DNA of 64,000 nucleotides. Origin: Gemmatimonadaceae bacterium (GTDB taxonomy: Bacteria > Gemmatimonadota > Gemmatimonadetes > Gemmatimonadales > Gemmatimonadaceae). The stretch is taken from assembly GCA_031421995.1 (NCBI GenBank), contig JANOPS010000127.1:2326-66325 (forward strand), written 5' to 3'. Made by a program: the position numbers and the translations under genes. The stretch's first letter is position 1. Every line of letters begins with the position of its first letter. This document shows, in pieces, positions 5,676 through 50,551 of the stretch. The notes under the pieces are model-generated. The model saw nothing but the letters and a program-made list of their open reading frames with translations. It made no database searches and was not told the DNA's origin.

Positions 5676-5690
5676 CGGCAGTATCTGCCG
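5676..5690. promoter_or_regulatory. Palindromic enhancer-like site CGGCAGTATCTGCCG
   Basis: Perfect CGGCA-N5-TGCCG, 85 bp upstream of a sigma54 box; the same motif recurs before five other sigma54 boxes. Confidence 0.65.
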
Positions 5691-5774
5691 ATCTTGGACA
5701 CCTCTTGCCGTCGTCGCGTCGCGCGAGACCTCCGGCAGAATGTTTTAAAGTGTTGTTGAACAACGACTTATGGT

Positions 5775-5790
5775 TGGCACGAGATCTGCT
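5775..5790 (+). promoter_or_regulatory. sigma54 promoter of the glycosylation/acylation operon
   Basis: TGGCACGAGATCTGCT (GG-N10-GC); IHF-like GAACAACGACTTA at 5758-5770. Confidence 0.75.
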
Positions 5791-5845
5791 TTAGAGGTGG
5801 TGACGCAGTCTTCCTCCACCACCATGCTCGCGCCCGGAGTCGTTG

Positions 5846-6874
5846 ATGACCATTGCAGATCGCCTGCCTCGCTGGACACCCTCACGTTGGGATCGTCCGC
5901 TTGACCGGGAGATGCTCAGTCGGCTCGAAGCACGGGCCGCGACCGCGGGCATCCTGGGCCCTGGGCCGCAGTGGAGCTTCAGCAGCGGTCACATCACCTC
6001 CCTGCGCGACATGATTCACGCGTGGGTCGGATGGGGACGACTGCCGGTAACAGCGACGTCGGCAGAGTCAATCGAGACCACCGGGCATTCCGACTTCGCC
6101 ACACACGTGCTTCGCCATGTCGCACAGATCGACCACCTCGGACTGATCACGCCGAGCTTTGTCGATCACGCCAGAAAGCATCAGTGGCTTGTTGCAGACC
6201 TCTACTCTCTCATGGATGTCCTTGAACTGACCGCGTTCCTGGGCGCCACCAATGGCCCGAAGGTGCGGATCCTCGAGATCGGTGGTGGCTGGGGTCGTCT
6301 CGCGGAGATGATGCTGAAGCTGTTTCCGGGTCTCGTGGAGTATGTGATGGTTGACGCGGTGCCGATCTCTCTGGTCTCGGCCGAAGCGTATCTGCGTCAC
6401 GAGCTCCCCGAGGCGAGCATCGGCAGCTTCATCAGCGGAGACATCTACCAGCCCGGCTCCTTTGACGTGTACTTTGTGCCAAGCTGGGAAGTCGAGCAGC
6501 TTGGCACCGCGCGATTTGATGCCGTGGTGAATATCGAGAGCTTCCAGGAAATGACGCAGGAGCAAGTCGATCTGTACATCGGCTGGTTTGATCAGATGAT
6601 TGCCGACAACGGCATTGCCTACATTGCCAATTCGCACGACTACGTGATGAAAGGGAACTGGAGTTACCCCAGTTCGTGGCGCACGCTGGCGCGACACCGT
6701 ACGCCGCGCTCATGGACGATTGATAACTCCACCCACATTTTGCGGAAGGAAGTGGGACACTTTGCCGCGGCAAATGCGATCATCGACGTGTCGTACGCCG
6801 AGACGTTGCCGGTATCCGCGAACCCCGGAGTGATCGCCGCTGAGCAGCGGCGCGTCATTGTCGGCGTCGCGTAA
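5846..6874 (+). CDS. Putative sugar O-methyltransferase (class I SAM-dependent)
   Basis: ILEIGGGWGRLAE SAM-binding motif and FDAVVNIESFQEM motif typical of the putative sugar O-methyltransferase family. Confidence 0.75.
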   Translation: MTIADRLPRWTPSRWDRPLDREMLSRLEARAATAGILGPGPQWSFSSGHITSLRDMIHAWVGWGRLPVTATSAESIETTGHSDFATHVLRHVAQIDHLGLITPSFVDHARKHQWLVADLYSLMDVLELTAFLGATNGPKVRILEIGGGWGRLAEMMLKLFPGLVEYVMVDAVPISLVSAEAYLRHELPEASIGSFISGDIYQPGSFDVYFVPSWEVEQLGTARFDAVVNIESFQEMTQEQVDLYIGWFDQMIADNGIAYIANSHDYVMKGNWSYPSSWRTLARHRTPRSWTIDNSTHILRKEVGHFAAANAIIDVSYAETLPVSANPGVIAAEQRRVIVGVA

Positions 6875-6895
6875 CGACTACCCGCCCCGACTTCC

Positions 6896-7912
6896 ATGTC
6901 TCTTTTCGCAACCGACGCGACGCTCCTCGGCTCATCGACCGCGGTCGCCGGTGCCGTGCGCCGTGAAGTGCCATCCGAGAGAGCGACGGCGACTGCACAG
7001 GCTTACGAGCATGTGCAGACCACCGCATCGATTGATACTCCGGACTCCACCGCGGTATGGAGCGCGCGACTTCCCGTCGCTATCGAGGCTGCGCTTCGTC
7101 GTGGTCACGTCCGCGCAGCGGCACTGTTGCACGAAGCGGCAACGAGTCACCTCAGCACTGATAATCCAGCGCTGCTCGCCTCGCGCTCGCTGATCGACGG
7201 CGCGGCAGCCGCCGACGCCGCCATTCAGCAGCGGCAGTTGGCCGGCGACGCCTTGGTGATCCCGTCGCTCACCGAAGTGCAGCCTGGACACCCGCGATTT
7301 TTCATTGGTCTCCAGTGGAATGAGATGGCGCACCCCATCGTGCAGGACGTCGTGACGCGCGAGCTTTCCGATGGCAGTCAGGCCGAGTTGCGGAACTTCC
7401 TCGACGAATCGCTCTGCGCAACGGATACGTTTCTCGATCTTGAGCCGGGCATCGGTATCGGGCTGTTCACGGCACTGAGTGCACCGAACGGTGTGAACGG
7501 TGTGTACGCGGTCCAACGCGACCCGGGCTTGCACGCGATCTTGCGTCGCAACATCGACCGGTCATACCCTGCCGCCACGGTGGCATTGCGTGCTGACCAG
7601 AGAGGCGTTGCCGAGTGCGTACGCTCCGCACGTGGTCGACTTGTCGCGCACGTGGGCACTCACCCGCTCGACGTGCTGCAGAGCGCTCTGGCACAAATGC
7701 GTACACGCGCGGCCGCCGTCATTCTCGATCTGACCAGCGACAACGCCAGTGCTTCGCTGGGCACGCTGGACAGCATGGGATTCCGGTCATTCGTGCTCGT
7801 ATCGAATGCTGAAGAGATTGAACTGCTGCCCTTCGAAGAGCGGTACGGGGCGCAGTACGTATTCGCCCTGTCGTCGCGCTTCATCGATTCCGTCGAGGTG
7901 CCCGCACCATGA
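6896..7912 (+). CDS. Degenerate FkbM-like methyltransferase-fold protein
   Basis: FLDLEPGIGIGLFTAL...VYAVQRDPGLHAILRRNI resembles FkbM motifs I/II but is diverged; coupled to the next gene by ATGA. Confidence 0.45.
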   Translation: MSLFATDATLLGSSTAVAGAVRREVPSERATATAQAYEHVQTTASIDTPDSTAVWSARLPVAIEAALRRGHVRAAALLHEAATSHLSTDNPALLASRSLIDGAAAADAAIQQRQLAGDALVIPSLTEVQPGHPRFFIGLQWNEMAHPIVQDVVTRELSDGSQAELRNFLDESLCATDTFLDLEPGIGIGLFTALSAPNGVNGVYAVQRDPGLHAILRRNIDRSYPAATVALRADQRGVAECVRSARGRLVAHVGTHPLDVLQSALAQMRTRAAAVILDLTSDNASASLGTLDSMGFRSFVLVSNAEEIELLPFEERYGAQYVFALSSRFIDSVEVPAP

Positions 7913-8535
7913 TCGCTGACGCCCCGACGGTGGCTCGTGCAGTCTGTGCGCTGCGCCGTGCACCTGTGCGGGGGCACGTCATTGATCTCGTGCCCTACCG
8001 CGCGGCGCACCACGAGCGTGTGATTGCGCTCCGCAACACCGAGCGTGCCTCGTACTTTTTGCATCAACCGGCGCCATTGACACGCGAAGGTCAGGCGGGA
8101 TGGTTCGCGAGTTACCTGAACAAAACCGACGACCTCCAGTGGGCCATCGTTCGAAAGGACGGGGCGGTTGTGGGTGCGACCGCGTTGTATGGTATCGCCG
8201 ACGATCGTTCGATGGCGGAGAAGGGCCGGCTTGTCGCCGATCCGTTGCTCTCGAAGCAGGGGCCCTACGTGTTGGAGGCCGAGCTGTTGCTTCTCGATGT
8301 CGCATTCGCGCGGCTCGACCTGCGCGCCGTCACCACCTGCGTGCGCGATGATAACGGCGTGATGCAGCACATCAACGCTCGCCTCGGCTTCGAGCGCAGC
8401 GGGCAGCATGTCATTCGCGGTGTGGAGTACTTCGACTATCGGCTGACTGCCGACCGGTACGCACCGGAACCCCTGCGCGCCACTGCGGTCGCGTGGGCGC
8501 AACGCACTTCCCGCACCCAAGGAGCTCCCCGATGA
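7909..8535 (+). CDS. GNAT N-acyltransferase (PseH/RimL-like)
   Basis: LRNTERASYF...GWFASY...WAIVRKDGAVVGATAL...AEKGRL...TCVRDDNGVMQHINARLGF GNAT pattern. Confidence 0.8.
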   Translation: MIADAPTVARAVCALRRAPVRGHVIDLVPYRAAHHERVIALRNTERASYFLHQPAPLTREGQAGWFASYLNKTDDLQWAIVRKDGAVVGATALYGIADDRSMAEKGRLVADPLLSKQGPYVLEAELLLLDVAFARLDLRAVTTCVRDDNGVMQHINARLGFERSGQHVIRGVEYFDYRLTADRYAPEPLRATAVAWAQRTSRTQGAPR

Positions 8536-8798
8536 CAGTCCTCGCACCCGTGATCACCGCCAACCACGTGACCCGTCTTCAGCAGGTCTTTACCGCGGCC
8601 TTGGAGCTCGCGCCGGACGTCGATCACAGCGGTCTCGCGTATCGTGAAACGCCGCAATGGGATTCGGTGGCGCACCTGCAGTTGGTCATCGCACTTGAAG
8701 CCGAGTTCGATGTCATGCTGGAGACCGACGACGTCTTGTCGCTCAGCACCTTTGGTGACGCGACAACGATTCTTGGCCGACACGGCATCGCATTCTGA
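8532..8798 (+). CDS. Acyl carrier protein
   Basis: 88 aa acidic protein with WDSVAHLQLVIALEAEFDV phosphopantetheine Ser motif; ATGA overlap with the GNAT gene. Confidence 0.9.
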   Translation: MTVLAPVITANHVTRLQQVFTAALELAPDVDHSGLAYRETPQWDSVAHLQLVIALEAEFDVMLETDDVLSLSTFGDATTILGRHGIAF

Positions 8799-9538
8799 TG
8801 GCGGATCCGGCCGTCGCGTTGGTGACAGGCGCTGCGCGCGGTATCGGTGCCGCGACTGCGTCGCGCTTCGTGCGCGATGGCGCGACCGTCTTTATGGCGG
8901 GTCGCGATATCGCGTCTTTGGAGGCGCACGCGTCCACGCTGAATGCGGTGGGCCCCGGGACGGCGATCGCGCTCTCGCTGGACGTGTCCGATCCGTCGTC
9001 GATTGCGGCCGCCTTCCGCGTGGTCTTCGCGACGTCGCGTCGGCTGGACGTCCTCGTGAACAACGCCGGCGTCATGGAGCCTGGACTGATCGGTGCCATC
9101 ACTGACCTCGCGCTGGCGCGTGCCTTCGCTATCAACGCCACCGGTTCCATTCTGTGTCTGCAGGCCGCTGCACGACTCATGCAGCGGCAGAAGCACGGTG
9201 CCATTGTCAACGTGTCGTCAGTGCTGGCGACACGCGCGGCCGTCGGAAAGACCGCCTACGCCGCGTCAAAGGCTGCGATCGAGGCAGCAACACGTTCGGC
9301 CGCCCTTGAACTCGCGCCCTGGGGTATTCGGGTCAACGCCGTCGCACCGGGATGGATCGACACGGAGTTAGTCGCGCATCTCTCGGCGGCGGCGCGTGTC
9401 GAGACGCAGCGTCGCGTGCCGATGGGACGGCCCGGACGACCCGACGAAGTGGCGACGGTGATTGCGTTTCTGGCCAGTCCGACCGCGTCGTACGTCACCG
9501 GGGCGATTGTTCCGGTCGACGGCGGATACGCGCCATGA
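8798..9538 (+). CDS. SDR family oxidoreductase (FabG-like 3-oxoacyl-ACP reductase)
   Basis: TGAARGIG, NNAG, YAASK and NAVAPG motifs. Confidence 0.9.
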   Translation: MADPAVALVTGAARGIGAATASRFVRDGATVFMAGRDIASLEAHASTLNAVGPGTAIALSLDVSDPSSIAAAFRVVFATSRRLDVLVNNAGVMEPGLIGAITDLALARAFAINATGSILCLQAAARLMQRQKHGAIVNVSSVLATRAAVGKTAYAASKAAIEAATRSAALELAPWGIRVNAVAPGWIDTELVAHLSAAARVETQRRVPMGRPGRPDEVATVIAFLASPTASYVTGAIVPVDGGYAP

Positions 9539-10959
9539 TCGGCAGACTTCATCCGCCGTGTGATGGCGTTGCGTTTGTGTCACCGGCCACCACCAGCACG
9601 TTGACGTACGCCCAACTCCATGCGCTTGTGCGTGACACGGCGGCGCGTTGGACGGCGTCGCGTCGGCAGCTTGTCTTCCTCCGAGTTCGGAACGATCTGG
9701 CGAGCGTGCTTGCCTTTTTGTCGCTCCGCGAGGCCGGGCACGTGGTGGTGCTGGTGGACCATGCGCTGGCGCCTGAACTGCTCGACGCGTTGGTGAGCAC
9801 GTACCATCCGGAGCTCATTGTTTCCGGCGACAGCCGCGATCAGGCTGATCAGGCACCGTCGGGCGGCGAACTGGTGGAGATGGGCAATGTCTCGTGCATG
9901 GTCGTCGCGTCACGTCCCGCCCATGCATCCGACCTGTATGACCAGCTCGCCTTCTGCCTGACCACTTCGGGATCGACGGGAAGTCCAAAACTGGTTCGTC
10001 TCAGCGAGTCGGCGCTCACCGCCAACGCGCGATCGATCGCCGTAGCACTGGACATCTCGAGTGCGGACCGTGCCATCACGTGTCTGCCGCTGCACTACGC
10101 CTACGGCCTGTCCATTCTCACAAGTCATCTGGCGGCCGGCGCCTCGGTGGTGCTCTCGGAAGACCGCATCATGGACGGCGCCTTCTGGTCGACCGTACGC
10201 GAGCATGCGGTGACCTCGTTGGCGGGTGTTCCGTATACCTACGAAATGCTCGAACGGCTCGGGTACGGACGTGTGATTCCGTCGAGTGTCCGGACCATGA
10301 CACAGGCCGGTGGACGGCTCTCGGACGCGGCCACCCTTCGCGCGCACGCCTTCATGAGCGAACGTGGGGGTCGCTTTCATGTCATGTATGGACAGACGGA
10401 AGCCACCGCGCGCATGGCCGTTCTACCCCACGGTTGGTTGCCCGAGCACATCGGATGTGCGGGACGCGCCATTCCGGGAGGCACACTTGCCGCGTGTACG
10501 GAAGCCGGTGTGCCGCTGGGACCCGACGAGGAAGGCGAGATTGTATACCGTGGACCGAACGTGATGCTCGGCTATGCCACGACCCGCGAGGACCTCGCGC
10601 TCGGAGACGTACAGCGTGGGGTGCTGCGCACGGGAGATCTCGGCGTGGTGAGTGCCATCGGTGCAGTTCGGATTACGGGTCGGCTCAAGCGCATGGGCAA
10701 GCTCTTTGGTGTGCGCGTGGATCTCGACATGCTCGAAACGCTGGCGGGAACAACGGCGCCGGCCGCGGTCATCGAAGGCGACAACGCCCTCATCATCTTT
10801 GCGGCAGGCGGTGACGCGGTGGATCTCGAGGCGATGCGCGCGCGCATCGCGTCACGTCTCAACGTGAAGCAGCGCGTCATCGATGTGCGGCGTATCGCGG
10901 AGCTTCCGCGGACGTCGTCCGGCAAAGTGGATTATCCCACGCTCCGAGCGTGCGCATGA
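9535..10959 (+). CDS. AMP-dependent acyl-CoA/acyl-ACP ligase
   Basis: TTSGSTGSPK, MYGQTEA, TGDLG, GRLKR and PRTSSGKVD adenylation motifs; start at ATGA overlap 9535. Confidence 0.9.
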   Translation: MIGRLHPPCDGVAFVSPATTSTLTYAQLHALVRDTAARWTASRRQLVFLRVRNDLASVLAFLSLREAGHVVVLVDHALAPELLDALVSTYHPELIVSGDSRDQADQAPSGGELVEMGNVSCMVVASRPAHASDLYDQLAFCLTTSGSTGSPKLVRLSESALTANARSIAVALDISSADRAITCLPLHYAYGLSILTSHLAAGASVVLSEDRIMDGAFWSTVREHAVTSLAGVPYTYEMLERLGYGRVIPSSVRTMTQAGGRLSDAATLRAHAFMSERGGRFHVMYGQTEATARMAVLPHGWLPEHIGCAGRAIPGGTLAACTEAGVPLGPDEEGEIVYRGPNVMLGYATTREDLALGDVQRGVLRTGDLGVVSAIGAVRITGRLKRMGKLFGVRVDLDMLETLAGTTAPAAVIEGDNALIIFAAGGDAVDLEAMRARIASRLNVKQRVIDVRRIAELPRTSSGKVDYPTLRACA

Positions 10960-12077
10960 CCGCCGTCGCCTTGCCCGCCACGCGTGGTGTCGAAACACGG
11001 AAACGGGAGCAGCAGTTCGCCATTCCGCAGTACATGCTGTTGGCGGCTGACAAGCAGCCCATGCTGCTGCGCAGCCTGAACGCGCTCACGGCGCACCATC
11101 GCGCGGCCTCACCAACCTACGCGCGCATGATCGACGCGCTCTTTGATGACCGCGGTGCCGATGCACCTGACCTCGCATCGGTGCCTTTTCTGCCCGTTGG
11201 CATATTCAAATCGCACCAGCTGCAGAGCATTCCGGACAGTGAAATTGCCACGGTGTTGGTCTCGAGCGGCACGACGGGACAAATACCCAGCCGCATTGTG
11301 CTCGATCACGCGACCGCCACGCGACAGCGTGTTGCGTTGGCGAGCATCATGGGGACGCTGCTTGGACCGCGACGTCTGCCGATGTTGGTGCTTGATGCAC
11401 CGGGCATCATCAGAGCGAAGGGGCCACTCACTGCTCGCGGTGCCGGTGTTCTTGGCATGATGACGTTCGGTGGTGCGCACGTGTTCTGCCTGGATGATGC
11501 GCTGACGATTCAGCGCGATGTCATCGAGCAGTTCCTCGCGAAACATGGGCATGCGCCCTTTCTCATCTTTGGCTTCACGTTCCTCGCGTGGCAGGCGCTG
11601 ATTGAGCAGCTGCCCGTCGGCTTCCTCGATCTCTCCAATGGTATTCTCGTGCACTCGGGAGGGTGGAAGACGCTCGAGGCACGCGCCGTGACCGACGCGG
11701 TGTTCCGGCAACGGCTGTCTGAGGCCACGGGACTTACCCGGATCCACAATTTCTATGGTATGGTGGAACAGGTGGGCAGTGTGTTCCTGCAGGGCGACGA
11801 TGGATTGCTCTATCCTCCTGATTTCGCCGACGTGCTGATCCGCGATCCGCGCTCCCTTGAAATCGTCCCGCATGGGACGGAGGGCGTGATTCAGGTTGTG
11901 AGTGTGCTGCCGCATAGCTATCCGGGGCATTCGATCCTCACCGAGGACCGAGGGGTGATCGTGCACGAGGACGCGCCGTACAGTTCTCGATGCGGCAAGG
12001 GTTTTCGTGTGCTTGGGCGCGTTCCGCGCGCGGAACTTCGCGGCTGCAGTGACGTCATCGCCACGGGGATGCCGTAA
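10956..12077 (+). CDS. LuxE-family acyl-protein synthetase
   Basis: PFLPVGIFK, SSGTTG, HSGGWK, NFYGMVEQVG, PGHSILTEDRG and C-terminal ELRGCSD with the acylated Cys. Confidence 0.9.
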   Translation: MTAVALPATRGVETRKREQQFAIPQYMLLAADKQPMLLRSLNALTAHHRAASPTYARMIDALFDDRGADAPDLASVPFLPVGIFKSHQLQSIPDSEIATVLVSSGTTGQIPSRIVLDHATATRQRVALASIMGTLLGPRRLPMLVLDAPGIIRAKGPLTARGAGVLGMMTFGGAHVFCLDDALTIQRDVIEQFLAKHGHAPFLIFGFTFLAWQALIEQLPVGFLDLSNGILVHSGGWKTLEARAVTDAVFRQRLSEATGLTRIHNFYGMVEQVGSVFLQGDDGLLYPPDFADVLIRDPRSLEIVPHGTEGVIQVVSVLPHSYPGHSILTEDRGVIVHEDAPYSSRCGKGFRVLGRVPRAELRGCSDVIATGMP

Positions 12078-13333
12078 TGCTGGCCGCAACACGACCACGG
12101 AGCGTGGAGGCCGCCGCGCCGGCATGTACGGACCTCGCCACGTCGGTGTCCGCGCAATTCTCGCTCGCACCGTTGTTGCAACCGTTCGACGCCAGAACGC
12201 TGGCCTTCACGACGGACCTTTCGCGCGCCCTCGCGTCCGATCGAGAACTCCGCGGCCACGGCGCCGCGCAGGCCCTTGCGTACTGGCTGCGTCCCACGGA
12301 AACGCGACGCCTGCAGCAGTACGTCCGGGCGATTGAAGGCGACAATGCCGTTCTGGTTCCCCGTGGCACCGTGTTTCATGTGCCTCCGTCAAACGTGGAC
12401 ACGTTGTTTGTCTATTCCTGGGCTCTGGCACTGCTGGTTGGCAATCGCAACGTTGTCCGTTTGTCGACGACGCTCAGCGGCCTTGGCGCATATATCGCGT
12501 TCCTGACCGAGTCGGTCCTGGCACGCCCGGTGCACGCCGATGTCGCCGCGGGCACGGCCTTTGTGCGTTATGGACACGAAGCCGAGCCGACGCGTGCCCT
12601 GTCGGCACTCTGCGATGTGCGCGTGTTGTGGGGTGGCGATGCCGCCGTCAGCCGCCTACGTGCCGCGCCGTTGGCGCCGCACGCCATAGAACTCGTGTTT
12701 CCGGACCGATACAGTTTTGCCGCGCTGCACGTTGGTGCGGTCGATGCCCTCACCGCCGAGGAGCGCGATGTGCTTGCCGACCGGTTTGCGGCCGACGCGT
12801 TCGTCTTCGATCAACAGGCCTGCGCCTCACCACGGCTGGTGCTGTGGGTTGGCAACGCGGCGTCAATGCATCGCGTGTCTGCGGATTTCTGGACTCGGGT
12901 GGCGAGCGCCACAGCACGTCGCGGGGTGACGATTGACGCCAGCGGCGCCTTGCGGAAATTCACGGTGTCTGCCGCTTGTGCTGCAGATGAATGCGTGGAG
13001 CACATCACCCGTGTCAGCCCTGAGGTGACGGTGGTTCGTCTCGGTTCCCTCGACGGGCTTCAGCGCGTTGCGCCCGGCAGCGGCCTGTTCCATGAGGTTT
13101 GTCTCACATCACTTGAGGAACTCGCTCCCCACCTGCGCCGACGCGATCAGACGCTGACCGTGTTCGGGTTTTCCCGCGATGCGCTCGTCGCAACGGTGCG
13201 CCATCTGAATGGTCGTGGTGTTGATCGCGTGGTGCCGGTCGGGCAAGCGCTGGCCTTTGATCACGTGTGGGACGGCTACGATCTGCTGCAACAGTTCACG
13301 CGCCGCGTCGCCGTGCGCGCAGAGGACGTGTAG
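12077..13333 (+). CDS. LuxC-family acyl-CoA reductase
   Basis: PRGTVFHVPPSNVD, WGGDAAV, FPDRYSF and FDQQACASP with the catalytic Cys. Confidence 0.88.
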   Translation: MLAATRPRSVEAAAPACTDLATSVSAQFSLAPLLQPFDARTLAFTTDLSRALASDRELRGHGAAQALAYWLRPTETRRLQQYVRAIEGDNAVLVPRGTVFHVPPSNVDTLFVYSWALALLVGNRNVVRLSTTLSGLGAYIAFLTESVLARPVHADVAAGTAFVRYGHEAEPTRALSALCDVRVLWGGDAAVSRLRAAPLAPHAIELVFPDRYSFAALHVGAVDALTAEERDVLADRFAADAFVFDQQACASPRLVLWVGNAASMHRVSADFWTRVASATARRGVTIDASGALRKFTVSAACAADECVEHITRVSPEVTVVRLGSLDGLQRVAPGSGLFHEVCLTSLEELAPHLRRRDQTLTVFGFSRDALVATVRHLNGRGVDRVVPVGQALAFDHVWDGYDLLQQFTRRVAVRAEDV

Positions 13334-13462
13334 TCATGCGGCATCGCTTTGCAAGCCTTTGCACAATCACGCGATGGTCACGGCCCACTTCTTGTATGAC
13401 GGAGCGCTAGCTATGCCCCGGGATACATGGGCGTCAACGAGCACCTTCTCCCTGTCACTGCA

Positions 13463-14527
13463 ATGATGAGCACTCAACACGCGGATATCGGCGTCGGCAT
13501 AATCGGTTGTGGCTATTGGGGCCCGAACCTGATCCGGAACTTTGACCGTCATCCACGGTGCCGGGTCGAACGCGTCGCCGACGTTCGCCGCGAGCGGGCG
13601 GAGGCGATTGCGCGTGAGTTTCACGTGCCGGCCGCGAACGATGATCCCGCGTCGGTGATAGACGACCCGCGCGTTCGACTGGTGGTCATTGCGACGCCCG
13701 CGGTAACACACTTCCCGCTTGCACGTCGCGCGTTGCTGGCGGGGAAGCACGTCCTGGTCATGAAGCCGTTCACCACCTGTACCGAGCACGCCGAGGAGCT
13801 GATCGCGCTTGCGCATCGACAGGGGCTTGTGTGCGCCGTCGACCACACGTTCGTGTATACCGGCGCCGTGCAGAAGATGTACGAGACGATGCACGACGGG
13901 TCGATGGGTGATCTGTTCTACATCGATAGTGTGCGCATCAACCTTGGACTGTTCCAGAGCGACGTCAACGTGCTCTGGGATCTCGCGCCGCACGACCTCA
14001 GCATCATCGACTACCTGCTTGACGGCCAGGACCCGACCGCGATCCATTGTCTCGGGGCGGCACACGCAGGCGGCAATCAGGAGAACATCGCGTACCTCAC
14101 GGTCACGTATCCAGGCAATGTCCTGGCCCATGTCCATGTGAATTGGCTCGCGCCTGCCAAGGTACGGCGCACGATTGTGGGTGGCTCGCAGCGGATGATT
14201 GTGTATGACGACGCGGAGCCTTCGGAGAAGATCCGGATCTATGACCGAGGGGTGTCCATCGAAAAGAGCTCGTCGGCGGAAGAAGTGTATCAACAGTTTG
14301 TCAGCTACCGACAAGGCGATATGCTCGTCCCGCAGATCAGCGGCCGCGAAGCGCTTGCCGTTGAGGTCGAGCATTTGGTGGAGTGCATCCAGACGGGAGC
14401 GGCGCCGCGGAGCGACGGCCGGTCCGGTCTCCGCGTGGTCCGCATCCTTGAAGCGGCACAACAGCAACTGGAAGCGGCGCGCGCGCCAAGCCTGGCACGA
14501 CTCCGACAGGTGATGGGAGCCGCCTGA
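13463..14527 (+). CDS. Gfo/Idh/MocA family NAD-dependent sugar dehydrogenase (WbpB/WlbA-like)
   Basis: GVGIIGCGYWGPNL, IATPAVTHF, GKHVLVMKP, WDLAPHDLS motifs; an alternative start at 13427 is possible. Confidence 0.88.
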   Translation: MMSTQHADIGVGIIGCGYWGPNLIRNFDRHPRCRVERVADVRRERAEAIAREFHVPAANDDPASVIDDPRVRLVVIATPAVTHFPLARRALLAGKHVLVMKPFTTCTEHAEELIALAHRQGLVCAVDHTFVYTGAVQKMYETMHDGSMGDLFYIDSVRINLGLFQSDVNVLWDLAPHDLSIIDYLLDGQDPTAIHCLGAAHAGGNQENIAYLTVTYPGNVLAHVHVNWLAPAKVRRTIVGGSQRMIVYDDAEPSEKIRIYDRGVSIEKSSSAEEVYQQFVSYRQGDMLVPQISGREALAVEVEHLVECIQTGAAPRSDGRSGLRVVRILEAAQQQLEAARAPSLARLRQVMGAA

Positions 14528-15684: not shown

Positions 15685-15691
15685 GTTACGC

Positions 15692-16924: not shown

Positions 16925-16945
16925 TACCGCATCATACCGCTCTCT

Positions 16946-18862: not shown

Positions 18863-18904
18863 CCGTGAGCGGGCTTCCGGAAAGCGACCGTTTCCTTCGG
18901 CCCC

Positions 18905-19951: not shown

Positions 19952-20044
19952 GCCTACGTCGCGTGCGCGCTGTGGCGCGTACAACGTCCGGGTTCTGCCA
20001 CAGTCGTAGCGTGATGCGCCGGGACGATCACCCTGCACCCCCCT

Positions 20045-21367: not shown

Positions 21368-21413
21368 AAGAGGCGGCAACGGAGCGTGGGCAGGACGATC
21401 AAACCGTCACTTA

Positions 21414-21429
21414 TGCAGACGCCGTGCCA
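21414..21429 (-). promoter_or_regulatory. sigma54 promoter for the pseC/pseG-like pair
   Basis: TGGCACGGCGTCTGCA (GG-N10-GC) on the minus strand. Confidence 0.75.
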
Positions 21430-21446: not shown

Positions 21447-21459
21447 AATCAATCGCTTA
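21447..21459. promoter_or_regulatory. IHF-like binding site
   Basis: AATCAATCGCTTA is an exact match to WATCAANNNNTTR and lies between the enhancer palindrome and the sigma54 box. Confidence 0.65.
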
Positions 21460-21481: not shown

Positions 21482-21496
21482 CGGCACATCCTGCCG
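21482..21496. promoter_or_regulatory. Palindromic enhancer-like site CGGCACATCCTGCCG
   Basis: Perfect CGGCA-N5-TGCCG upstream of the minus-strand sigma54 box. Confidence 0.65.
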
Positions 21497-22978: not shown

Positions 22979-23051
22979 CGGGAGAAGCGACGAGGCCCCG
23001 GGCGGTTACGAACCGGTACGGTCGTAACACACGGAAGGCGGACCTTAGACA

Positions 23052-23078
23052 GTATCGGACGCTTCCTCCGAGGTCTTA
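23052..23078 (-). promoter_or_regulatory. sigma28 promoter for flgL-fliW
   Basis: TAAG-N15-TCCGATAC on the minus strand, close to consensus TAAA-N15-GCCGATAA. Confidence 0.75.
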
Positions 23079-23128: not shown

Positions 23129-23143
23129 CGGACAAGTTTGCCG
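23129..23143. promoter_or_regulatory. Enhancer-like palindrome variant upstream of the sigma54 activator gene (possible autoregulation)
   Basis: CGGACAAGTTTGCCG, a variant of CGGCA-N5-TGCCG. Confidence 0.4.
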
Positions 23144-23263
23144 GGAGGACACAAATGCCACATACTATAGGTGACGCGTGTTCGTGCGCGAGGACGCGTC
23201 TTCGTGAGCGGGGTCACCGATCGGCCCCGACCGAATGTTCTTTCTCCCTCCCGAACGTACTAC

Positions 23264-24700
23264 ATGGCGACAATCCTGTACGTGGATGACGAACCAAGTG
23301 TCGGACTGATTCTCGACGACACACTCAGCCGCGCGGGGCACACCCCGGTAGGAGCAATAGGAGTACCGCAGGCACTTCAGGTCTTGGAACGCGGCGGCGT
23401 TGACCTGATCATTTCGGACTACCGAATGCCTGGGCTTTCGGGACTGGAGTTTATCCAGCTTCTGACGCGCGAGGGGTATGACATTCCCCTCATCATGTTG
23501 ACAGGGTACGCGAGCATCGAGCATGCAGTTGCCTCGATCAAAGCCGGTGCCGTCGACTATATCACCAAACCGATTCGCCCCCAGCAACTCGAGCTCGCCG
23601 TCGAGCAGGCGCTCGAGTTTGTTCGGCTCCGCCGCGAGAACGAGTCGCTTCGCAAAGAGGTGATGCAGTTCCGCAACGAGCGGCAGATCATTGGCGATTC
23701 GCCACCGATTCGCCGCATCCTGCAGACGGTGTCGATGGCAGCGCCGACGCGGGCTACCGTGCTGCTTCAAGGAGAGTCGGGGACCGGCAAAGAGCTGTTT
23801 GCGCGAGCGATTCATGATCAGAGCGAACGACGTGACCGTCCGTTCATCAAACTGAACTGCGCGGCACTTCCCGAGGGATTGATCGAATCCGCGCTGTTCG
23901 GACATGAAAAGGGCGCGTTCACCGGTGCGATCAAACGAGTTGAGGGTGCCTTTGAGCGCGCCAACCGAGGCACGCTCTTGCTGGACGAAGTCTCGGAGAT
24001 GCGTTTGGACCTGCAGGCAAAGCTCCTTCGCGTTTTGCAGGAACAGGAGTTTGAGCGCGTGGGTGGAACGTCATCAATCAAGGTAGACGTACGCATCGTG
24101 GCGACCACCAACCGCGACCTCGCCGCGGAGGCCGACGTCGGCCATTTCCGGCAGGACCTCTACTATAGACTGTCGACGATCCCGATCCTCATCCCGCCGT
24201 TACGGGAGCGCGTTGAGGACATCCCGGTCTTGGCATTGCGATTCGCGCTCCGCAATGCCGCAGAGCTTGGGAAAAAGATCGAAGGCATAGCGCCCAGCGC
24301 CCTTGAGGCCCTGCAAAAGTACGCGTGGCCGGGCAACATCCGAGAGCTGCAGCACGTGATTGAACGCGCAGTCATCCTGACCACCGACTCGATGATTCAA
24401 CAGAATTCTCTGGAAGGGACGCGTTTCGGACTGGCCCATTCCCTTGGGTCCACGGCAATTCGCCCAAGGTCGGTGACGAATCCGAGCGGCAACTATGCCG
24501 TGGTCAACAGTGCCGTCCCAGGCTCGATCAGTCTCGCGAGCATGAACGTGGGCGATGCGGAACGCGTGCTGATCCAGCATGCCCTGGTCGCCGCATCCAA
24601 CAACAGAACGCGGGCGGCAGAATTGTTGGGGATCAGCGTGCGAACGCTGCGCAACAAGCTGAATGGTCCAGGACGCGAATCGGAGATCGACGACGAATAG
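23264..24700 (+). CDS. sigma54-dependent response regulator (REC-AAA+-HTH; FlgR/FleR/NtrC-type), likely flagellar class activator
   Basis: ILYVDDE and IISDYRMP receiver, GESGTGKE Walker A, HEKGAFTGA, LLLDE, Fis-type HTH NNRTRAAELLGISVRTLRNKL. Confidence 0.92.
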   Translation: MATILYVDDEPSVGLILDDTLSRAGHTPVGAIGVPQALQVLERGGVDLIISDYRMPGLSGLEFIQLLTREGYDIPLIMLTGYASIEHAVASIKAGAVDYITKPIRPQQLELAVEQALEFVRLRRENESLRKEVMQFRNERQIIGDSPPIRRILQTVSMAAPTRATVLLQGESGTGKELFARAIHDQSERRDRPFIKLNCAALPEGLIESALFGHEKGAFTGAIKRVEGAFERANRGTLLLDEVSEMRLDLQAKLLRVLQEQEFERVGGTSSIKVDVRIVATTNRDLAAEADVGHFRQDLYYRLSTIPILIPPLRERVEDIPVLALRFALRNAAELGKKIEGIAPSALEALQKYAWPGNIRELQHVIERAVILTTDSMIQQNSLEGTRFGLAHSLGSTAIRPRSVTNPSGNYAVVNSAVPGSISLASMNVGDAERVLIQHALVAASNNRTRAAELLGISVRTLRNKLNGPGRESEIDDE

Positions 24701-24710: not shown

Positions 24711-24855
24711 CGGAAGATCCTGCCGACCACCGTTCGTGCCGGTTGGTAGGCAACTACGACCACTTCGGTGGCGGCAGGATTTTCCGTTTTACCCGGTATT
24801 TGTTCGCAACATCGCATCAGTCTTCGCCATGCGAGGCGATCGGCACGTATTGCCG
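24711..24855. promoter_or_regulatory. Three enhancer-like palindromes upstream of the flgB promoter
   Basis: CGGAAGATCCTGCCG (24711-25), CGGCAGGATTTTCCG (24772-86), CGGCACGTATTGCCG (24841-55). Confidence 0.65.
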
Positions 24856-24940
24856 GATGAATTGTAAGTTCTTTCTTTGCAGGAGTTTGGCTTCGCCAAT
24901 TGTCGCGGCAATTGCCAAAGTATGTGATGGATGCGGAGTT

Positions 24941-24956
24941 TGGCCCGCGCATTGCT
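24941..24956 (+). promoter_or_regulatory. sigma54 promoter of the flgB operon
   Basis: TGGCCCGCGCATTGCT (GG-N10-GC, TTGCT -12). Confidence 0.8.
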
Positions 24957-37140: not shown

Positions 37141-37142
37141 AC

Positions 37143-37314
37143 GGGAAAGAATTGCCGTGTCCGGTCAGTGCTGCCGGGTCTTGAGATGCGCACGCGCTAC
37201 ATTCATCTTCCAGAGCAGGGGCGCGTCAGTTGACATAAGCCATTGTCAAATAGGCTTTTAACTGCCGTCACGCTGCGCCGATGCGCGCGCTGCATTCGTG
37301 GCACCAGTCCTGCT
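37143..37314 (+). promoter_or_regulatory. sigma54 promoter module of the fliL operon (enhancer variant, IHF-like site, -24/-12)
   Basis: GGGAAAGAATTGCCG (37143-57); TGACAATGGCTTA on the minus strand (37236-48); TGGCACCAGTCCTGCT (37299-314). Confidence 0.72.
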
Positions 37315-37946: not shown

Positions 37947-37964
37947 GGCGAAAGCGCGTCTGCC

Positions 37965-39388: not shown

Positions 39389-39394
39389 CCGCTC

Positions 39395-42750: not shown

Positions 42751-42795
42751 CAATCTCCGTTCGCACGCCTCGGCAATTCCGCCCTATCACAAGAT

Positions 42796-42919
42796 AGGCA
42801 GTTTCTGCCGCTGGCGGCGAGACGTCTCGGTGTCCTTTTGGCGAGGGAAACATAAGTCGTTGTGAATGCGTGGTTTACGCGATAATCGTCAGTTCGGTCG
42901 GAATGGTATGATCTGTGCC
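42796..42919 (+). promoter_or_regulatory. sigma54 promoter module of the fliQ operon
   Basis: AGGCAGTTTCTGCCG (42796-810); TCACAACGACTTA on the minus strand (42853-65); TGGTATGATCTGTGCC, GG-N10-GC (42904-19). Confidence 0.65.
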
Positions 42920-42983
42920 TTTGGAGGTGCCTGAGTCGCTACGTCCGCGACACCGCTGTCCCCTCAGCCCCAACCGACGCACG

Positions 42984-43253: not shown

Positions 43254-43258
43254 GCATC

Positions 43259-44104: not shown

Positions 44105-44105
44105 C

Positions 44106-49006: not shown

Positions 49007-49008
49007 TT

Positions 49009-49797
49009 GTGACCACTGCTACGCCCCAAGGATCACCGGCCATGAACACCGCGCTCTGGCAGTCGTATCACGCAGGAAGTGACGCCGCGCGTGATACGCT
49101 GCTCGTCGAGCATTTGGGACTGGTGCATCATGTCGCTCGACAAGTCTCACGAACGCTCGCCGTGCGCGCCGACTTTGATGAACTCGTGAGTGCCGGCACG
49201 ATGGGGCTGATGGCGGCGCTGGAGGGATTTGATGCCACGCGCGGACTCGCCTTCAGCACCTTTGCGGCGCCGCGTATTCGCGGCGCCATCCTCGATGAAC
49301 TGCGCAAACAAGATCACGTGCCGCGGTCTATTCGCCGCAAGACGCGCGAGATGAGCGCGGCCCGCGAGGCATGGATGCGCGCCCACGGTCGCGCACCCGA
49401 TGATCGGGAGTTGGCGGCGCAACTCAATGTGGACATGGATACGCTGTGGCGTTGGAAGGCGGACGTCGAAGGCGCACATCATATCCCCATCGATCGAGCC
49501 CCTGGTGAGCGTGACAACAGTGCTCCCGCATATTCGGAACTCTCGGCAGGCAGCGAACACTCCGAGGTCGAGGAGCAGCTCACGCACGAGCAAGAGGTTG
49601 ACCATCTGAAAGACGCGCTGCTGCGTCTCAAGGCGCAGGAGCGCATTGTGTTGTCGCTCTACTACTTCGAGGAGTTGAAGCTGCACGAGATCGCGAAGGT
49701 GCTCGAGCTCACGGAATCGCGCGTGTCGCAGATCCGCTCAAAGGCGCTCAGCAAACTCCGGCTCGATCTCAAGCCCATGCGGGGCATCTTCGCATGA
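49009..49797 (+). CDS. fliA: RNA polymerase sigma factor FliA (sigma28)
   Basis: DELVSAGTMGLMAAL..FD..RG..FSTFAAPRIRGAILDELRKQD, region 4 YYFEELKLHEIAKVLELTESRVSQI. Confidence 0.95.
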   Translation: MTTATPQGSPAMNTALWQSYHAGSDAARDTLLVEHLGLVHHVARQVSRTLAVRADFDELVSAGTMGLMAALEGFDATRGLAFSTFAAPRIRGAILDELRKQDHVPRSIRRKTREMSAAREAWMRAHGRAPDDRELAAQLNVDMDTLWRWKADVEGAHHIPIDRAPGERDNSAPAYSELSAGSEHSEVEEQLTHEQEVDHLKDALLRLKAQERIVLSLYYFEELKLHEIAKVLELTESRVSQIRSKALSKLRLDLKPMRGIFA

Positions 49798-50429
49798 GTG
49801 CGGGCAGCCATCCCGCGATACCGTCGCAAAAAGCGGCGTCGCCGGTGTCATCGCGCGTACAGCCGATCCTCCAGCGCCTGCGGGTCGCAACCAGAAAGTC
49901 GGTTTTGCTGCGAGTGCTGTTGGTCAGCCTGCTGGCCATGGCGGTCACCACGGCCGGCGTGGTGGCCGGTGCGTTGGTGGTCGCTCCAGTGGTCGCCCAG
50001 GCGGATGCGCTCGGTGCCGGGACAGCGCTGTCGTCTCAGCTGGCGACCGTGTCAGCCGCCGCCGGAACCGCCGCACGCGACGCGTGGAGCCGTGTCGACC
50101 GTATGACGGCCGAGCAACTCGCGACCTTGCCCGATCCTGTGGCCAGATATCTGCTGCCATCGATCGCGATCCTCTCCATCATCGGTGCCGTGTTGGCGTT
50201 GCTCCTCCCGTCTCGCACACCGGGCGTGACGAAGACGCGCACTCCGCCGACGAACAGCACCAGACTTGTGACCAGAAAGCACCGCACGCCGAAAGCCGTC
50301 GAAGCGTTGGCCGCGTCGGGTGCCTCCACCGCCGACATCGCGTGGAAGACGGGCCTGCCAATCGATGCCGTCAAACTGCTGCTCGCCATTTCTTCCGGCC
50401 CTCGGCAAGTCCATCCGGATACGGCATGA
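49794..50429 (+). CDS. Membrane protein with a C-terminal HTH-like tail (similar to the post-fliA DUF2802/YlxL-type genes)
   Basis: Two hydrophobic segments and KAVEALAASGASTADIAWKTGLPIDAVKLLLAI; ATGA overlap with fliA. Confidence 0.6.
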   Translation: MSAGSHPAIPSQKAASPVSSRVQPILQRLRVATRKSVLLRVLLVSLLAMAVTTAGVVAGALVVAPVVAQADALGAGTALSSQLATVSAAAGTAARDAWSRVDRMTAEQLATLPDPVARYLLPSIAILSIIGAVLALLLPSRTPGVTKTRTPPTNSTRLVTRKHRTPKAVEALAASGASTADIAWKTGLPIDAVKLLLAISSGPRQVHPDTA

Positions 50430-50453
50430 ACTGCCGTGCGGCGTTTTGTGCCG
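50403..50453. promoter_or_regulatory. Three tandem enhancer-like palindromes upstream of the flgF promoter
   Basis: CGGCAAGTCCATCCG (50403-17), CGGCATGAACTGCCG (50422-36), CGGCGTTTTGTGCCG (50439-53). Confidence 0.68.
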
Positions 50454-50521
50454 CCTGCCACGTCGGTCTGAGAGAAATCCCGTTAACGCCTTACTGGCAA
50501 ACACTTTAGCACAATGTCTTT

Positions 50522-50546
50522 TGGTCGGGCCACTGTGGCCCGACCA
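50522..50546. repeat. Perfect 12-bp inverted repeat overlapping the flgF sigma54 -24 box
   Basis: TGGTCGGGCCAC-T-GTGGCCCGACCA. Confidence 0.85.
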
Positions 50547-50551
50547 TTGCG
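50536..50551 (+). promoter_or_regulatory. sigma54 promoter of the flgF operon
   Basis: TGGCCCGACCATTGCG (GG-N10-GC). Confidence 0.75.

What the first reader, a model, noticed from the sequence alone, without database searches (positions are those of the whole stretch)
5676..50551. Complete sigma54 flagellar regulon readable from DNA: palindromic CGGCA-N5-TGCCG enhancer, IHF site and -24/-12 box at six promoters
Seen: GG-N10-GC boxes at 5775(+), 21414-29(-), 24941(+), 37299(+), 42904(+) and 50536(+). Each has, about 50-150 bp upstream, a 15-bp palindrome: perfect copies at 5676, 21482, 24841 and 50422, and variants at 24711, 24772, 37143, 42796, 50403 and 50439. IHF-like WATCAANNNNTTR sites lie between the two elements at 21447 (exact), 5758, 37236 and 42853. 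A variant at 23129 sits before the activator gene. Inference: this is the binding site of the REC-AAA+-HTH activator at 23264-24700, and it places the glycosylation island in the same transcriptional class as the basal-body genes. I did not exhaustively scan for copies elsewhere.
Basis: partly seen in the sequence, partly recalled or inferred. Interest (0 to 1): 0.65.

Follow-up and report, generated by a model that had tools for sequence, protein, structure and literature searches.

The report
FlbD-type flagellar enhancer sites, Gemmatimonadota
The repeated palindrome CGGCA-N5-TGCCG is a real, conserved docking site for a sigma-54 activator in front of the flagellar and flagellin-sugar operons of a Gemmatimonadota bacterium. 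Its core sequence is the "ftr" enhancer already known from Caulobacter FlbD, so this is a known control system in a new phylum.

Summary
All six -24/-12 boxes and the four perfect palindromes are at the stated coordinates. Genome-wide there are 36 perfect copies (about 49 expected), so the word itself is not enriched. However, the only four copies lying 50-240 bp upstream of a sigma-54 box are all in this cluster.

In 13 genomes of the same genus, 39 of 44 orthologous flgB, fliL, fliQ and flgF promoters keep a palindrome with at most one mismatch, against 6% of random windows. The palindromes sit at fixed distances from the promoter, with conserved half-sites and free spacers.

A conserved CAA-N4-TTR (IHF-like) block lies between enhancer and promoter. 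rpoN is present. The adjacent regulator is a canonical REC-AAA+(GAFTGA)-HTH_8 protein and is syntenic across the class.

The core motif equals the published Caulobacter FlbD ftr consensus. Unlike FlbD, this regulator keeps its phospho-acceptor Asp, no FliX was found in this 99%-complete draft, and the sites also precede early genes and the glycosylation island.

- Sites 24711 and 24772 are the arms of a terminator-like hairpin.
- The E. coli IHF consensus is not enriched.
- flgL-fliW and flagellin use sigma-28-type promoters.

This scan has found the same motif before in other phyla. Verdict: new member of a known kind.

The parts
5676..5690 (.). Perfect palindrome CGGCAGTATCTGCCG. Enhancer for the island promoter, starting 99 bp upstream of the -24 T.
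   Evidence: relatives have palindromes about 98-100 bp upstream of island sigma-54 boxes
5761..5770 (+). IHF-like core CAACGACTTA (CAA-N4-TTR) between enhancer and promoter
5775..5790 (+). Sigma-54 -24/-12 promoter TGGCACGAGATCTGCT, 68 nt before the sugar O-methyltransferase gene (5843) that heads the glycosylation island
21414..21429 (-). Sigma-54 promoter TGGCACGGCGTCTGCA, 50 nt before the PseC-like / PseG-like genes (21379 to 18905)
21447..21459 (+). The only exact match to the E. coli IHF consensus (AATCAATCGCTTA) among the promoter sites
21482..21496 (.). Perfect palindrome CGGCACATCCTGCCG, 67 bp upstream of the minus-strand -24 box
23051..23078 (-). Sigma-28 (FliA)-type promoter for flgL-fliW: TAAG-N16-CCGATAC. 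The block is conserved in all 13 same-genus genomes.
23129..23166 (+). Variant palindrome CGGACAAGTTTGCCG (CGGCTAATTTTGCCG in relatives). It overlaps a -35-like TTGCCG, followed by N17 and a -10-like CATACT, before the regulator gene. Candidate autoregulatory operator.
   Evidence: the function is inferred
23264..24700 (+). Activator gene: REC (DD8-9, D52, T80, K102) - sigma-54 AAA+ (GAFTGA) - AAA lid - Fis-type HTH_8 (residues 431-466)
24711..24790 (+). Long hairpin whose arms are the one-mismatch 'variants' at 24711 and 24772, followed by TTTT. Probably the intrinsic terminator of the regulator gene; the arms may also serve as weak binding sites.
   Evidence: -56 kcal/mol, z = -6.3; similar GGAAGAT...TGCCG elements in distant relatives
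24841..24855 (.). Perfect palindrome CGGCACGTATTGCCG, 100 bp upstream of the flgB promoter
24864..24889 (+). Position of the conserved TAAG...AA-N4-TTR block in the flgB promoter (degenerate in this genome)
24941..24956 (+). Sigma-54 promoter TGGCCCGCGCATTGCT for flgB-flgC-fliE-F-G-H-I-J-fliK-flgD-flgE. A strict-pattern match was found at this position in 28 of 30 same-genus loci.
37143..37176 (.). Two degenerate sites, GGGAAAGAATTGCCG and CGGTCAGTGCTGCCG, 156 and 137 bp upstream of the fliL promoter. These are the positions where relatives carry perfect copies.
37236..37261 (+). IHF-like conserved block TAAGCCATTGTCAAATAGGCTTTTAA
37299..37314 (+). Sigma-54 promoter TGGCACCAGTCCTGCT for fliL-fliM-fliN-fliO/P-HEAT protein
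42771..42810 (.). Conserved upstream half-site CGGCAATTCCGCC, plus the one-mismatch palindrome AGGCAGTTTCTGCCG (42796) 108 bp upstream of the fliQ promoter
42853..42877 (+). IHF-like conserved block TAAGTCGTTGTGAATGCGTGGTTTA
42904..42919 (+). Sigma-54 promoter TGGTATGATCTGTGCC (mostly TGGTAC-N5-CTGCT or TGGCAC-N5-CTGCT in relatives) for fliQ-fliR-flhB-flhA-flhF-flhG-fliA-unknown
50403..50453 (.). Three sites: 50403 CGGCAAGTCCATCCG (conserved as CGGCAACTCCAGCCG in relatives), 50422 perfect CGGCATGAACTGCCG (114 bp upstream), and 50439 CGGCGTTTTGTGCCG (not conserved). They overlap the 3' end of ORF 49794-50429.
50484..50508 (+). IHF-like block TAACGCCTTACTGGCAAACACTTTA (TAA-N13-AAA-N4-TTA)
50536..50551 (+). 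Sigma-54 promoter TGGCCCGACCATTGCG for flgF-G-A-H-I-J-flgN-flgK-csrA

Best explanation
This is a Gemmatimonadota flagellar gene cluster run by a three-tier transcriptional cascade.

Tier 1. A promoter that is not of the sigma-54 type, and looks sigma-70-like, makes the NtrC-family response regulator encoded at 23264-24700.

Tier 2. Once activated, presumably by phosphorylation of Asp52, the regulator's C-terminal Fis-type helix-turn-helix dimer binds the palindrome CGGCA-N5-TGCCG 67-156 bp upstream of six sigma-54 promoters. A conserved A/T-rich CAA-N4-TTR element in between is probably bent by the genome's single IHF-like protein. This brings the AAA+ ring to the closed sigma-54 holoenzyme, and ATP hydrolysis through the GAFTGA loop opens the promoter. 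Tier 2 switches on four flagellar operons: flgB-flgE (rod, MS ring, switch, export ATPase, hook); fliL-fliP (motor switch and export gate); fliQ-fliA (export gate, flhF, flhG, fliA); and flgF-csrA (distal rod, rings, hook junction). It also switches on both arms of the flagellin glycosylation island.

Tier 3. FliA (sigma-28), made from the fliQ operon, then transcribes flgL-fliW and flagellin.

A conserved variant of the palindrome overlaps the -35-like hexamer of the regulator's own promoter and may give negative autoregulation, as ftr4 does for the operon encoding flbD in Caulobacter.

What is shown: the sequence elements, their specificity within the genome, their conservation, and the domain content of the regulator. 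What is inferred: binding, phosphorylation, bending, the autoregulation and the order of the tiers.
For: - Motif and promoters are at the stated coordinates.
- All 4 genome-wide perfect palindromes that lie 50-240 bp upstream of a sigma-54 box are in this cluster; the other 32 perfect copies have no box.
- Of 44 orthologous promoters in 13 same-genus genomes, 39 have a palindrome with at most one mismatch and 21 have a perfect one. Random windows of the same DNA give 6.3% and 0.9%. Distances are fixed: fliL 145-156, fliQ 108-113, flgF 112-116. Half-sites are invariant and the spacer is variable.
- Seventy-eight neighbourhoods of unrelated NtrC-family paralogs from other phyla show no palindrome/sigma-54 pair.
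- The regulator has REC, a sigma-54 AAA+ domain with GAFTGA, and HTH_8. It is syntenic between flgL and flgB across genus, family and class.
- rpoN is present.
- An AA-N4-TTR block occurs in 40 of 44 promoters against 5.4% of random windows. The genome has a single IHF/HU-family gene, which scores highest against IHF models.
- Sigma-28-type blocks are conserved before flgL and flagellin, and fliA lies in the fliQ operon.
- The published FlbD ftr consensus CCCGGCAxxxxxTGCCGGG and the Desulfovibrio DVU1063 motif GGCA...TGCC share the same core (PMC3333781). FlbD represses through ftr4 (PMC3930126).
Against:
- The genome has 11 sigma-54 activator genes, so assigning the motif to this one rests on location and synteny.
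- No histidine kinase lies next to the regulator.
- The palindrome as a word is not enriched genome-wide: 36 observed against about 49 expected. One-mismatch copies cannot be told from chance in a single genome.
- The E. coli IHF consensus is not enriched, and the IHF-like gene scores below the curated cut-offs.
- Five relatives that lack FlhA and FliG keep the regulator with its sites, so its role is not strictly flagellar.
Confidence: 0.8

Rival explanations
1. The palindromes are real enhancer sites, but a different DNA-binding protein binds them: either one of the other ten sigma-54 activators of the genome or an unrelated dimeric regulator. Under this reading, the regulator at 23264 either acts from solution, as Helicobacter/Campylobacter FlgR can, or recognises another sequence.
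For: The genome has eleven sigma-54 activator genes. No experiment links this protein to the motif. FlgR-type flagellar activators are known to work without DNA binding (established knowledge; the review PMC3930126 covers these systems).
Against: The regulator keeps a Fis-type HTH_8 that passes the Pfam cut-off. This C-terminal region is 72-93% identical in the best 120 public matches, whose source names are nearly all Gemmatimonadota. The gene stays next to the palindrome-bearing promoters across the class, and it even stays with them in relatives that have lost the flagellum. The motif equals the site of FlbD, a protein of the same family and role.
Confidence: 0.1
2. The palindromes are not protein-binding sites. 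They are RNA or DNA structural elements (small hairpins, terminators of upstream genes) or compositional chance in GC-rich DNA.
For: Genome-wide the word is not over-represented: 36 observed against about 49 expected. Two of the listed variants do form a strong terminator-like hairpin. Site 50422 overlaps the end of an ORF, and the regulator-proximal element in some relatives resembles a GC stem followed by a T run.
Against: A 5-bp stem with a 5-nt loop is too weak to act as a terminator. Sites 5676, 21482 and 24841 have no T run. Half-sites are conserved while spacers drift, and distances to the -24 box are fixed across 13 genomes. This is the signature of a dimeric protein site, not of a hairpin, which would tolerate compensatory changes. 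All box-coupled perfect copies are in one cluster.
Confidence: 0.04
3. The conserved TAAG...CAA-N4-TTR block between enhancer and promoter is not an IHF bend site. It is the operator of a second, dimeric regulator (repressor or co-activator), because in several relatives it forms an inverted repeat of the type AAGTCGTT-N7-AACGACTT.
For: There are near-perfect inverted repeats in relatives, for example CAAGTCGTTC-N5-GAACGACTTG before fliQ in G011. The E. coli IHF consensus is not enriched in the window. The single IHF/HU-family gene scores below the IHF cut-offs.
Against: The columns that are most conserved are those of the asymmetric IHF core (CAA, TTR), plus an upstream TAA. The fliL consensus AATCAATGACTTA across relatives is an exact IHF consensus. 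The left half of the repeat is often missing. Caulobacter ftr promoters use IHF in the same position, according to the title of Gober and Shapiro 1992 as cited in PMC3096577.
Confidence: 0.2

Closest known systems
Caulobacter crescentus FlbD and its ftr enhancer elements (sigma-54 class III/IV flagellar promoters with IHF sites)
   Same: - Same core recognition sequence: CGGCA-N5-TGCCG, against the published CCCGGCAxxxxxTGCCGGG (PMC3333781).
- Same protein family: REC, sigma-54 AAA+ domain and Fis-type HTH.
- Same promoter layout: enhancer, then an IHF-like element, then the -24/-12 box.
- A site overlapping the promoter of the regulator's own transcription unit, paralleling ftr4 repression of the fliF promoter (PMC3930126); that flbD lies in the fliF operon is from my own knowledge.
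   Different: [quoted passage not shown]
- No FliX was found in this 99%-complete draft.
- The protein scores 355.6 bits against the 750-bit cut-off of the NCBIfam FlbD model, below its scores for the AtoC and NtrC models.
- The CC/GG flanks of ftr are not conserved here.
- The sites also precede early genes (fliF, flhA, fliQ) and a glycosylation island, which are CtrA-dependent or absent in Caulobacter.
- FliA drives flagellin here, whereas Caulobacter flagellins are sigma-54 dependent.
Desulfovibrio vulgaris DVU1063 flagellar sigma-54 response regulator (motif GGCA-N-TGCC)
   Same: It is a response-regulator type sigma-54 activator with GAFTGA. It has a large flagellar regulon (12 operons) and a GGCA...TGCC palindrome, shown by DAP-chip (PMC3333781; PMC4641369).
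   Different: - DVU1063 is described as having an atypical receiver.
- Many of its sites lie 40-70 bp downstream of the promoter, whereas all sites here are upstream.
- D. vulgaris also has a FleQ/FlrA-like second flagellar activator (DVU2894). No second motif or activator is seen in this cluster.
FlrC / FleR / FlgR two-component flagellar activators of Vibrio, Pseudomonas, Campylobacter and Helicobacter
   Same: It is a phosphorylatable REC-AAA+ response regulator that activates sigma-54 rod and hook operons. FliA controls late genes. flhF and flhG are present in the cluster. The closest solved AAA+ domains include FlrC.
   Different: - No adjacent FlrB/FleS/FlgS kinase.
- No FlrA/FleQ master tier seen in the cluster.
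- The enhancer sequence differs from the sites known for those proteins.
- Early export-gate genes here are also under the same activator.

Membership tests
Sigma-54 (-24/-12) promoter | GG-N10-GC with a TGGCAC-N5-TTGC-like context, placed shortly upstream of an operon start | tested here: met
   Six boxes lie 50-102 nt before the first gene. The four core boxes are conserved in 9-13 same-genus genomes.
Sigma-54 (-24/-12) promoter | The genome encodes RpoN | tested here: met
   TIGR02395 scores 417 bits against a cut-off of 277, at C593:49215-50672.
Sigma-54 (-24/-12) promoter | Transcription starts about 12 nt downstream of the GC and depends on rpoN | not testable with these tools
Bacterial enhancer-binding protein (NtrC-type response regulator) | Sigma-54 interaction AAA+ domain with a GAFTGA loop | tested here: met
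   PF00158 at 233 bits; GAFTGA is read in the translation.
Bacterial enhancer-binding protein (NtrC-type response regulator) | Receiver domain with acidic pocket, phospho-acceptor Asp, and Thr and Lys switch residues | tested here: met
   PF00072 at 84 bits. DD8-9, D52 (LIISDYRMPG), T80 and K102 are read. The assignment is by eye against the usual receiver pattern, not by a structural alignment.
Bacterial enhancer-binding protein (NtrC-type response regulator) | C-terminal Fis-type HTH DNA-binding domain | tested here: met
   PF02954 at 43.5 bits against a cut-off of 22, residues 431-466.
FlbD / ftr system | Binding-site core CGGCA-N5-TGCCG upstream of flagellar sigma-54 promoters | tested here: met
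   against the consensus quoted in PMC3333781.
FlbD / ftr system | Extended ftr flanks (CC...GG, the 19-bp element) | tested here: not met
   Flank columns of 52 aligned sites show no strong preference.
FlbD / ftr system | Protein passes the FlbD equivalog model | tested here: not met
   NF050807 scores 355.6 bits against a cut-off of 750. It ranks below the AtoC, NtrC, NifA, PEP-CTERM and ZraR models.
FlbD / ftr system | Activity set by FliX and not by phosphorylation (atypical receiver) | tested here: not met
   The receiver is canonical. FliX (PF10768) was not found in the 99%-complete genome, while the Caulobacter control was positive.
FlbD / ftr system | IHF site between ftr and promoter | tested here: inconclusive
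   A conserved CAA-N4-TTR block is present. The E. coli consensus is not enriched, and the lone IHF-like gene scores below its cut-off.
FlbD / ftr system | The protein physically binds the palindrome, and activates as well as represses | not testable with these tools
   Only a conserved site overlapping the regulator's own -35-like hexamer hints at repression.
FlrC/FleR/FlgR two-component flagellar activators | Cognate sensor kinase encoded next to the regulator | tested here: not met
   The neighbours are flgL and flgB. A hybrid kinase follows the regulator only in a distant relative, G168. A conserved small ORF at 57084-57752(-) has no Pfam or PDB match.
FlrC/FleR/FlgR two-component flagellar activators | Passes the curated FlgR or related models | tested here: not met
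   NF049963 (FlgR) scores 325.7 bits against a cut-off of 750.

The most novel reading that the evidence does not exclude
The CGGCA-N5-TGCCG/FlbD-type recognition pair is an ancient flagellar enhancer code shared across phyla. It is documented in Alphaproteobacteria and Desulfovibrio, is now seen in Gemmatimonadota, and unchecked notes of this scan report it in Verrucomicrobia and other lineages.

In Gemmatimonadota it would work in what may be its simplest form. A single phosphorylatable response regulator acts as sole master of early genes, middle genes and flagellin-glycosylation genes, with no FleQ/CtrA tier above it. The regulator, enhancer and sigma-54 module also outlives the flagellum: in three genera without FlhA or FliG it is kept, and in two of them it sits in front of a FliA-like sigma factor gene. 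That would imply it has been re-used for a non-flagellar regulon.
Probability: 0.3. Interest if true: 0.55.

Novelty: new member of a known kind. Interest (0 to 1): 0.33.

Why it matters
It gives a DNA-level wiring diagram for flagellar gene control in Gemmatimonadota. I found no paper on this subject for the phylum in the held library, and public records name the regulator only generically.

It shows that the FlbD ftr recognition sequence is used far outside the Proteobacteria. It also shows that a flagellin glycosylation island can be wired into the same sigma-54 class as the basal body.

The practical value is in annotation. These regulators can be named flagellar activators, and their regulons can be predicted from the motif. 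It does not reveal a new mechanism.

Tried and rejected
- **E. coli IHF consensus scan.** Not enriched, and only one exact promoter site. I replaced it with phylogenetic footprinting.
- **One-mismatch palindrome plus sigma-54 pairs genome-wide.** At chance level, 13 against about 12, so variants cannot be called from one genome.
- **Genome-wide enrichment of the word.** None: 36 observed against about 49 expected.
- **Other perfect copies.** All other perfect copies that are intergenic or at a gene end lack a correctly placed sigma-54 box, so no extra regulon members were found.
- **Neighbourhoods of 78 bEBP genes about 40-45% identical, from other phyla.** No pairs; these serve as a negative control and are not orthologs.
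- **Direct comparison with FlbD.** I could not fetch a FlbD or DVU1063 sequence:
  - the NCBIfam FlbD accession was not accepted by the genome search;
  - the HTH-region search returned generically named proteins, nearly all Gemmatimonadota where a source is named;
  - the primary FlbD papers are not held.

  Orthology versus convergence with FlbD therefore remains untested.
It is conserved in relatives, but has no Pfam hit and no PDB sequence relative. It remains a lead only.

Full report
**What the window is.** The 64-kb window (63.5% G+C) is contig C127 of a 6.3-Mb draft genome that is 99% complete. The closest named records are Gemmatimonadaceae and Longimicrobiaceae genomes assembled from metagenomes.

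Family searches give a nearly complete flagellar cluster:
- fliS, fliD and flagellin on the minus strand
- a TPR/GT9 protein
- a 15-kb sugar-modification island (5843-18862 on the plus strand; PseG-like and PseC-like genes at 18905-21379 on the minus strand)
- fliW and flgL on the minus strand
- a response-regulator sigma-54 activator (23264-24700)
- flgB to flgE
- fliL to fliO/P plus a HEAT protein
- fliQ-fliR-flhB-flhA-flhF-flhG-fliA plus an unknown gene
- flgF-G-A-H-I-J-flgN-flgK-csrA
- motAB

**Check of the observation.** The sixth, 42904 TGGTATGATCTGTGCC, is weaker, but relatives keep a box at this position, mostly as TGGTAC-N5-CTGCT or TGGCAC-N5-CTGCT.

The four perfect palindromes are confirmed. 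A fifth, unlisted copy lies inside fliD at 1890. Five copies against 0.35 expected was reached by none of 100 shuffles.

The wider picture is more nuanced. In the whole genome there are 36 perfect copies, against about 49 expected from half-site frequencies, and spacing 5 is not favoured over other spacings. What stands out is position. Exactly four perfect copies lie 50-240 bp upstream of a strict sigma-54 box, and all four are in this cluster. The other copies that are intergenic or at a gene end have no suitable box. Copies with one mismatch coupled to a box are as frequent as chance (13 against about 12). The 'variants' therefore cannot be judged from this genome alone.

**Comparative test.** An ortholog of the regulator (77-89% identity) is present in 35 of 36 genomes of the same genus. 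I fetched the cluster from 12 of them; gene order is the same.

Across 44 orthologous flgB, fliL, fliQ and flgF promoters (the 12 relatives plus this genome), 39 carry a palindrome with at most one mismatch within 225 bp upstream, and 21 carry a perfect one. Random 225-bp windows of the same DNA give 6.3% and 0.9%. These genomes are related, so the figures overstate the number of independent observations.

Distances to the -24 T are nearly fixed:

| Promoter | Distance to the -24 T (bp) |
|---|---|
| fliL | 145-156 |
| fliQ | 108-113 |
| flgF | 112-116 |
| flgB | 88-230, variable |

In 52 aligned sites the GG and CC columns are invariant and the other half-site letters nearly so. The exception is the first G of TGCCG, which is T in 12 of the 52. 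The five spacer positions drift, with only an A/T preference at the centre. This is the pattern of a dimeric protein-binding site, not of an RNA hairpin.

The weak sites in this window at 37143 (156 bp upstream), 42796 (108 bp) and 50403 sit exactly where relatives have better copies. Site 50439 is not conserved.

The variable sugar islands of relatives also carry palindrome/sigma-54 pairs about 100 bp apart. This supports the claim that the island belongs to the same class.

In another genus of the family (G322), perfect copies precede flgB, fliL and fliQ. In other families (regulator 52-62% identical) the sites drift towards GGCA-N5-TTCC but are still found before sigma-54 boxes. Seventy-eight neighbourhoods of unrelated NtrC paralogs from other phyla contain no such pair.

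- The sites at 24711 and 24772 are the two arms of a long hairpin (-56 kcal/mol, z = -6.3) followed by TTTT, directly after the regulator's stop codon. The simplest reading is an intrinsic terminator. Similar GGAAGAT..TGCCG elements before flgB in distant relatives leave open that they also bind the protein.
- The E. coli IHF pattern is not enriched. The fliL consensus among relatives, AATCAATGACTTA, is an exact IHF consensus.
- AA-N4-TTR occurs in 40 of 44 promoters against 5.4% of random windows. That control is mostly coding DNA, so the contrast is inflated.
- The genome has a single HU/IHF-family gene. It scores higher against IHF-beta and IHF-alpha models (89 and 84 bits) than against HU models (58 and 50 bits), but below the curated cut-offs.
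- In some relatives the block is an inverted repeat, so a second dimeric regulator cannot be excluded.

**The regulator.** P0001 has a receiver, a sigma-54 AAA+ domain with GAFTGA, an AAA lid and a Fis-type HTH. The receiver carries the acidic pair, Asp52, Thr80 and Lys102, so it looks phosphorylatable. Its closest solved relatives are Aquifex NtrC1 and NtrC4, LuxO, ZraR and the FlrC AAA+ domain.

rpoN is present. There are 11 sigma-54 activator genes in the genome, and only this one lies in the cluster. No kinase gene is adjacent.

It is conserved in relatives but has no Pfam or PDB relative.

**The rest of the hierarchy.**
- The flgL-regulator spacer contains a block conserved in all 13 genomes. 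On the flgL strand it reads TAAAG-N14-TCCGATAC, a sigma-28-type promoter.
- A related block, TCAAG-N14-ACGAGACT, precedes flagellin.
- fliA lies in the fliQ operon.
- The variant at 23129 is conserved as CGGCTAATTTTGCCG. It overlaps TTGCCG-N17-CATACT, which looks like a sigma-70-type promoter for the regulator.
- By analogy with ftr4 repression of the Caulobacter fliF promoter (PMC3930126) I infer negative autoregulation; that flbD is encoded in that operon is from my own knowledge. This is not shown.

**Comparison with what is known.** Rajeev et al. (PMC3333781) quote the Caulobacter FlbD site as CCCGGCAxxxxxTGCCGGG and report GGCA...TGCC for the Desulfovibrio flagellar regulator DVU1063. The core here is identical. 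The layout of enhancer, IHF-like element and sigma-54 promoter is also that of Caulobacter class III/IV promoters.

The system therefore works like FlbD/ftr. Membership in the FlbD family is not established:
- the NCBIfam FlbD model scores 355.6 bits against a cut-off of 750, below the AtoC and NtrC models;
- the receiver is canonical;
- FliX was not found in this draft, while the Caulobacter control was positive;
- the ftr flanks are not conserved.

The regulon also differs. Early genes (fliF, flhA, fliQ) and the glycosylation island are included, and sigma-28 takes over the late genes.

I could not obtain a FlbD sequence to test orthology against convergence. I found no paper on flagellar regulation in this phylum in the held library.

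Earlier notes of this scan report the same ftr-type motif in Verrucomicrobia, Sphingomonas, a lineage labelled Myxococcales, and others. I did not test those. They agree with the view that the motif is widespread.

**Verdict.** The kind of element is already known. This is a new member of the FlbD/ftr type of flagellar enhancer system, in a phylum where I found no published description of it, with a phosphorylatable regulator and a broader target set. Interest is modest.

Noticed in passing
L157:3964-4300, L158:3973-4300, L161 (reverse strand) about 1100-1400, L166:208: Five relatives in three genera (95-97% complete) have no FlhA or FliG but keep a roughly 70%-identical ortholog of the regulator. 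In three of them (two genera) a double palindrome lies before a FliA-like sigma factor gene; the two I inspected closely (L157, L158) also have an IHF-like block and a sigma-54 box (TGGTCCCGCGGTTGCC) there. In a fourth (L166) one perfect palindrome lies beside the regulator and no fliA-like gene is in view; the fifth (G124) was not inspected. The module seems to outlive the flagellum. Its targets there are unknown.
   Followed up: partly
window 3992-4026 (minus strand, flagellin 5' leader): The flagellin leader has a conserved hairpin, GAGGCACGGATGCCTC, with GGA in the loop. It also has CATCACGGAGGAT over the ribosome-binding site, conserved in 11 genomes. This looks like two CsrA-binding GGA sites. 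Together with fliW (21547-22062) and csrA (56761-57078) in the cluster, it suggests a FliW-CsrA-flagellin partner switch as in Bacillus subtilis.
   Followed up: partly
window 4061-4090 (minus strand) and 23051-23078 (minus strand): Sigma-28-type promoter blocks before flagellin (TCAAG-N14-ACGAGACT) and before flgL-fliW (TAAAG-N14-TCCGATAC in relatives). Both are conserved across the genus, so the late genes are not in the sigma-54 class.
   Followed up: yes
window 57084-57752 (minus strand): A 222-aa ORF between csrA and motA, on the opposite strand, is conserved at 37-53% identity in six same-genus relatives. It contains an H-box-like LTHALSNRVGTI but has no Pfam or PDB sequence match.
   Followed up: partly
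window 1890-1904: A fifth perfect palindrome, CGGCACCAAGTGCCG, lies inside the fliD coding region with no sigma-54 box nearby. It is probably chance. I did not check its conservation in relatives.
   Followed up: no
L170:12735-15614 (minus strand; genome G168) and L173:4404-5453 (genome G242): In two more distant relatives, signalling genes are inserted between the regulator and flgB. One is a MASE1-PAS-HisKA-HATPase-REC hybrid kinase. The other is a REC-HD (HD-GYP-like) protein. These are possible lineage-specific inputs to the regulator.
   Followed up: partly
window 23175-23235: The regulator's leader contains a conserved pair GACGC...GCGTCAC (an inverted repeat) in most same-genus genomes. 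It may be a 5' UTR hairpin; its function is unknown.
   Followed up: no
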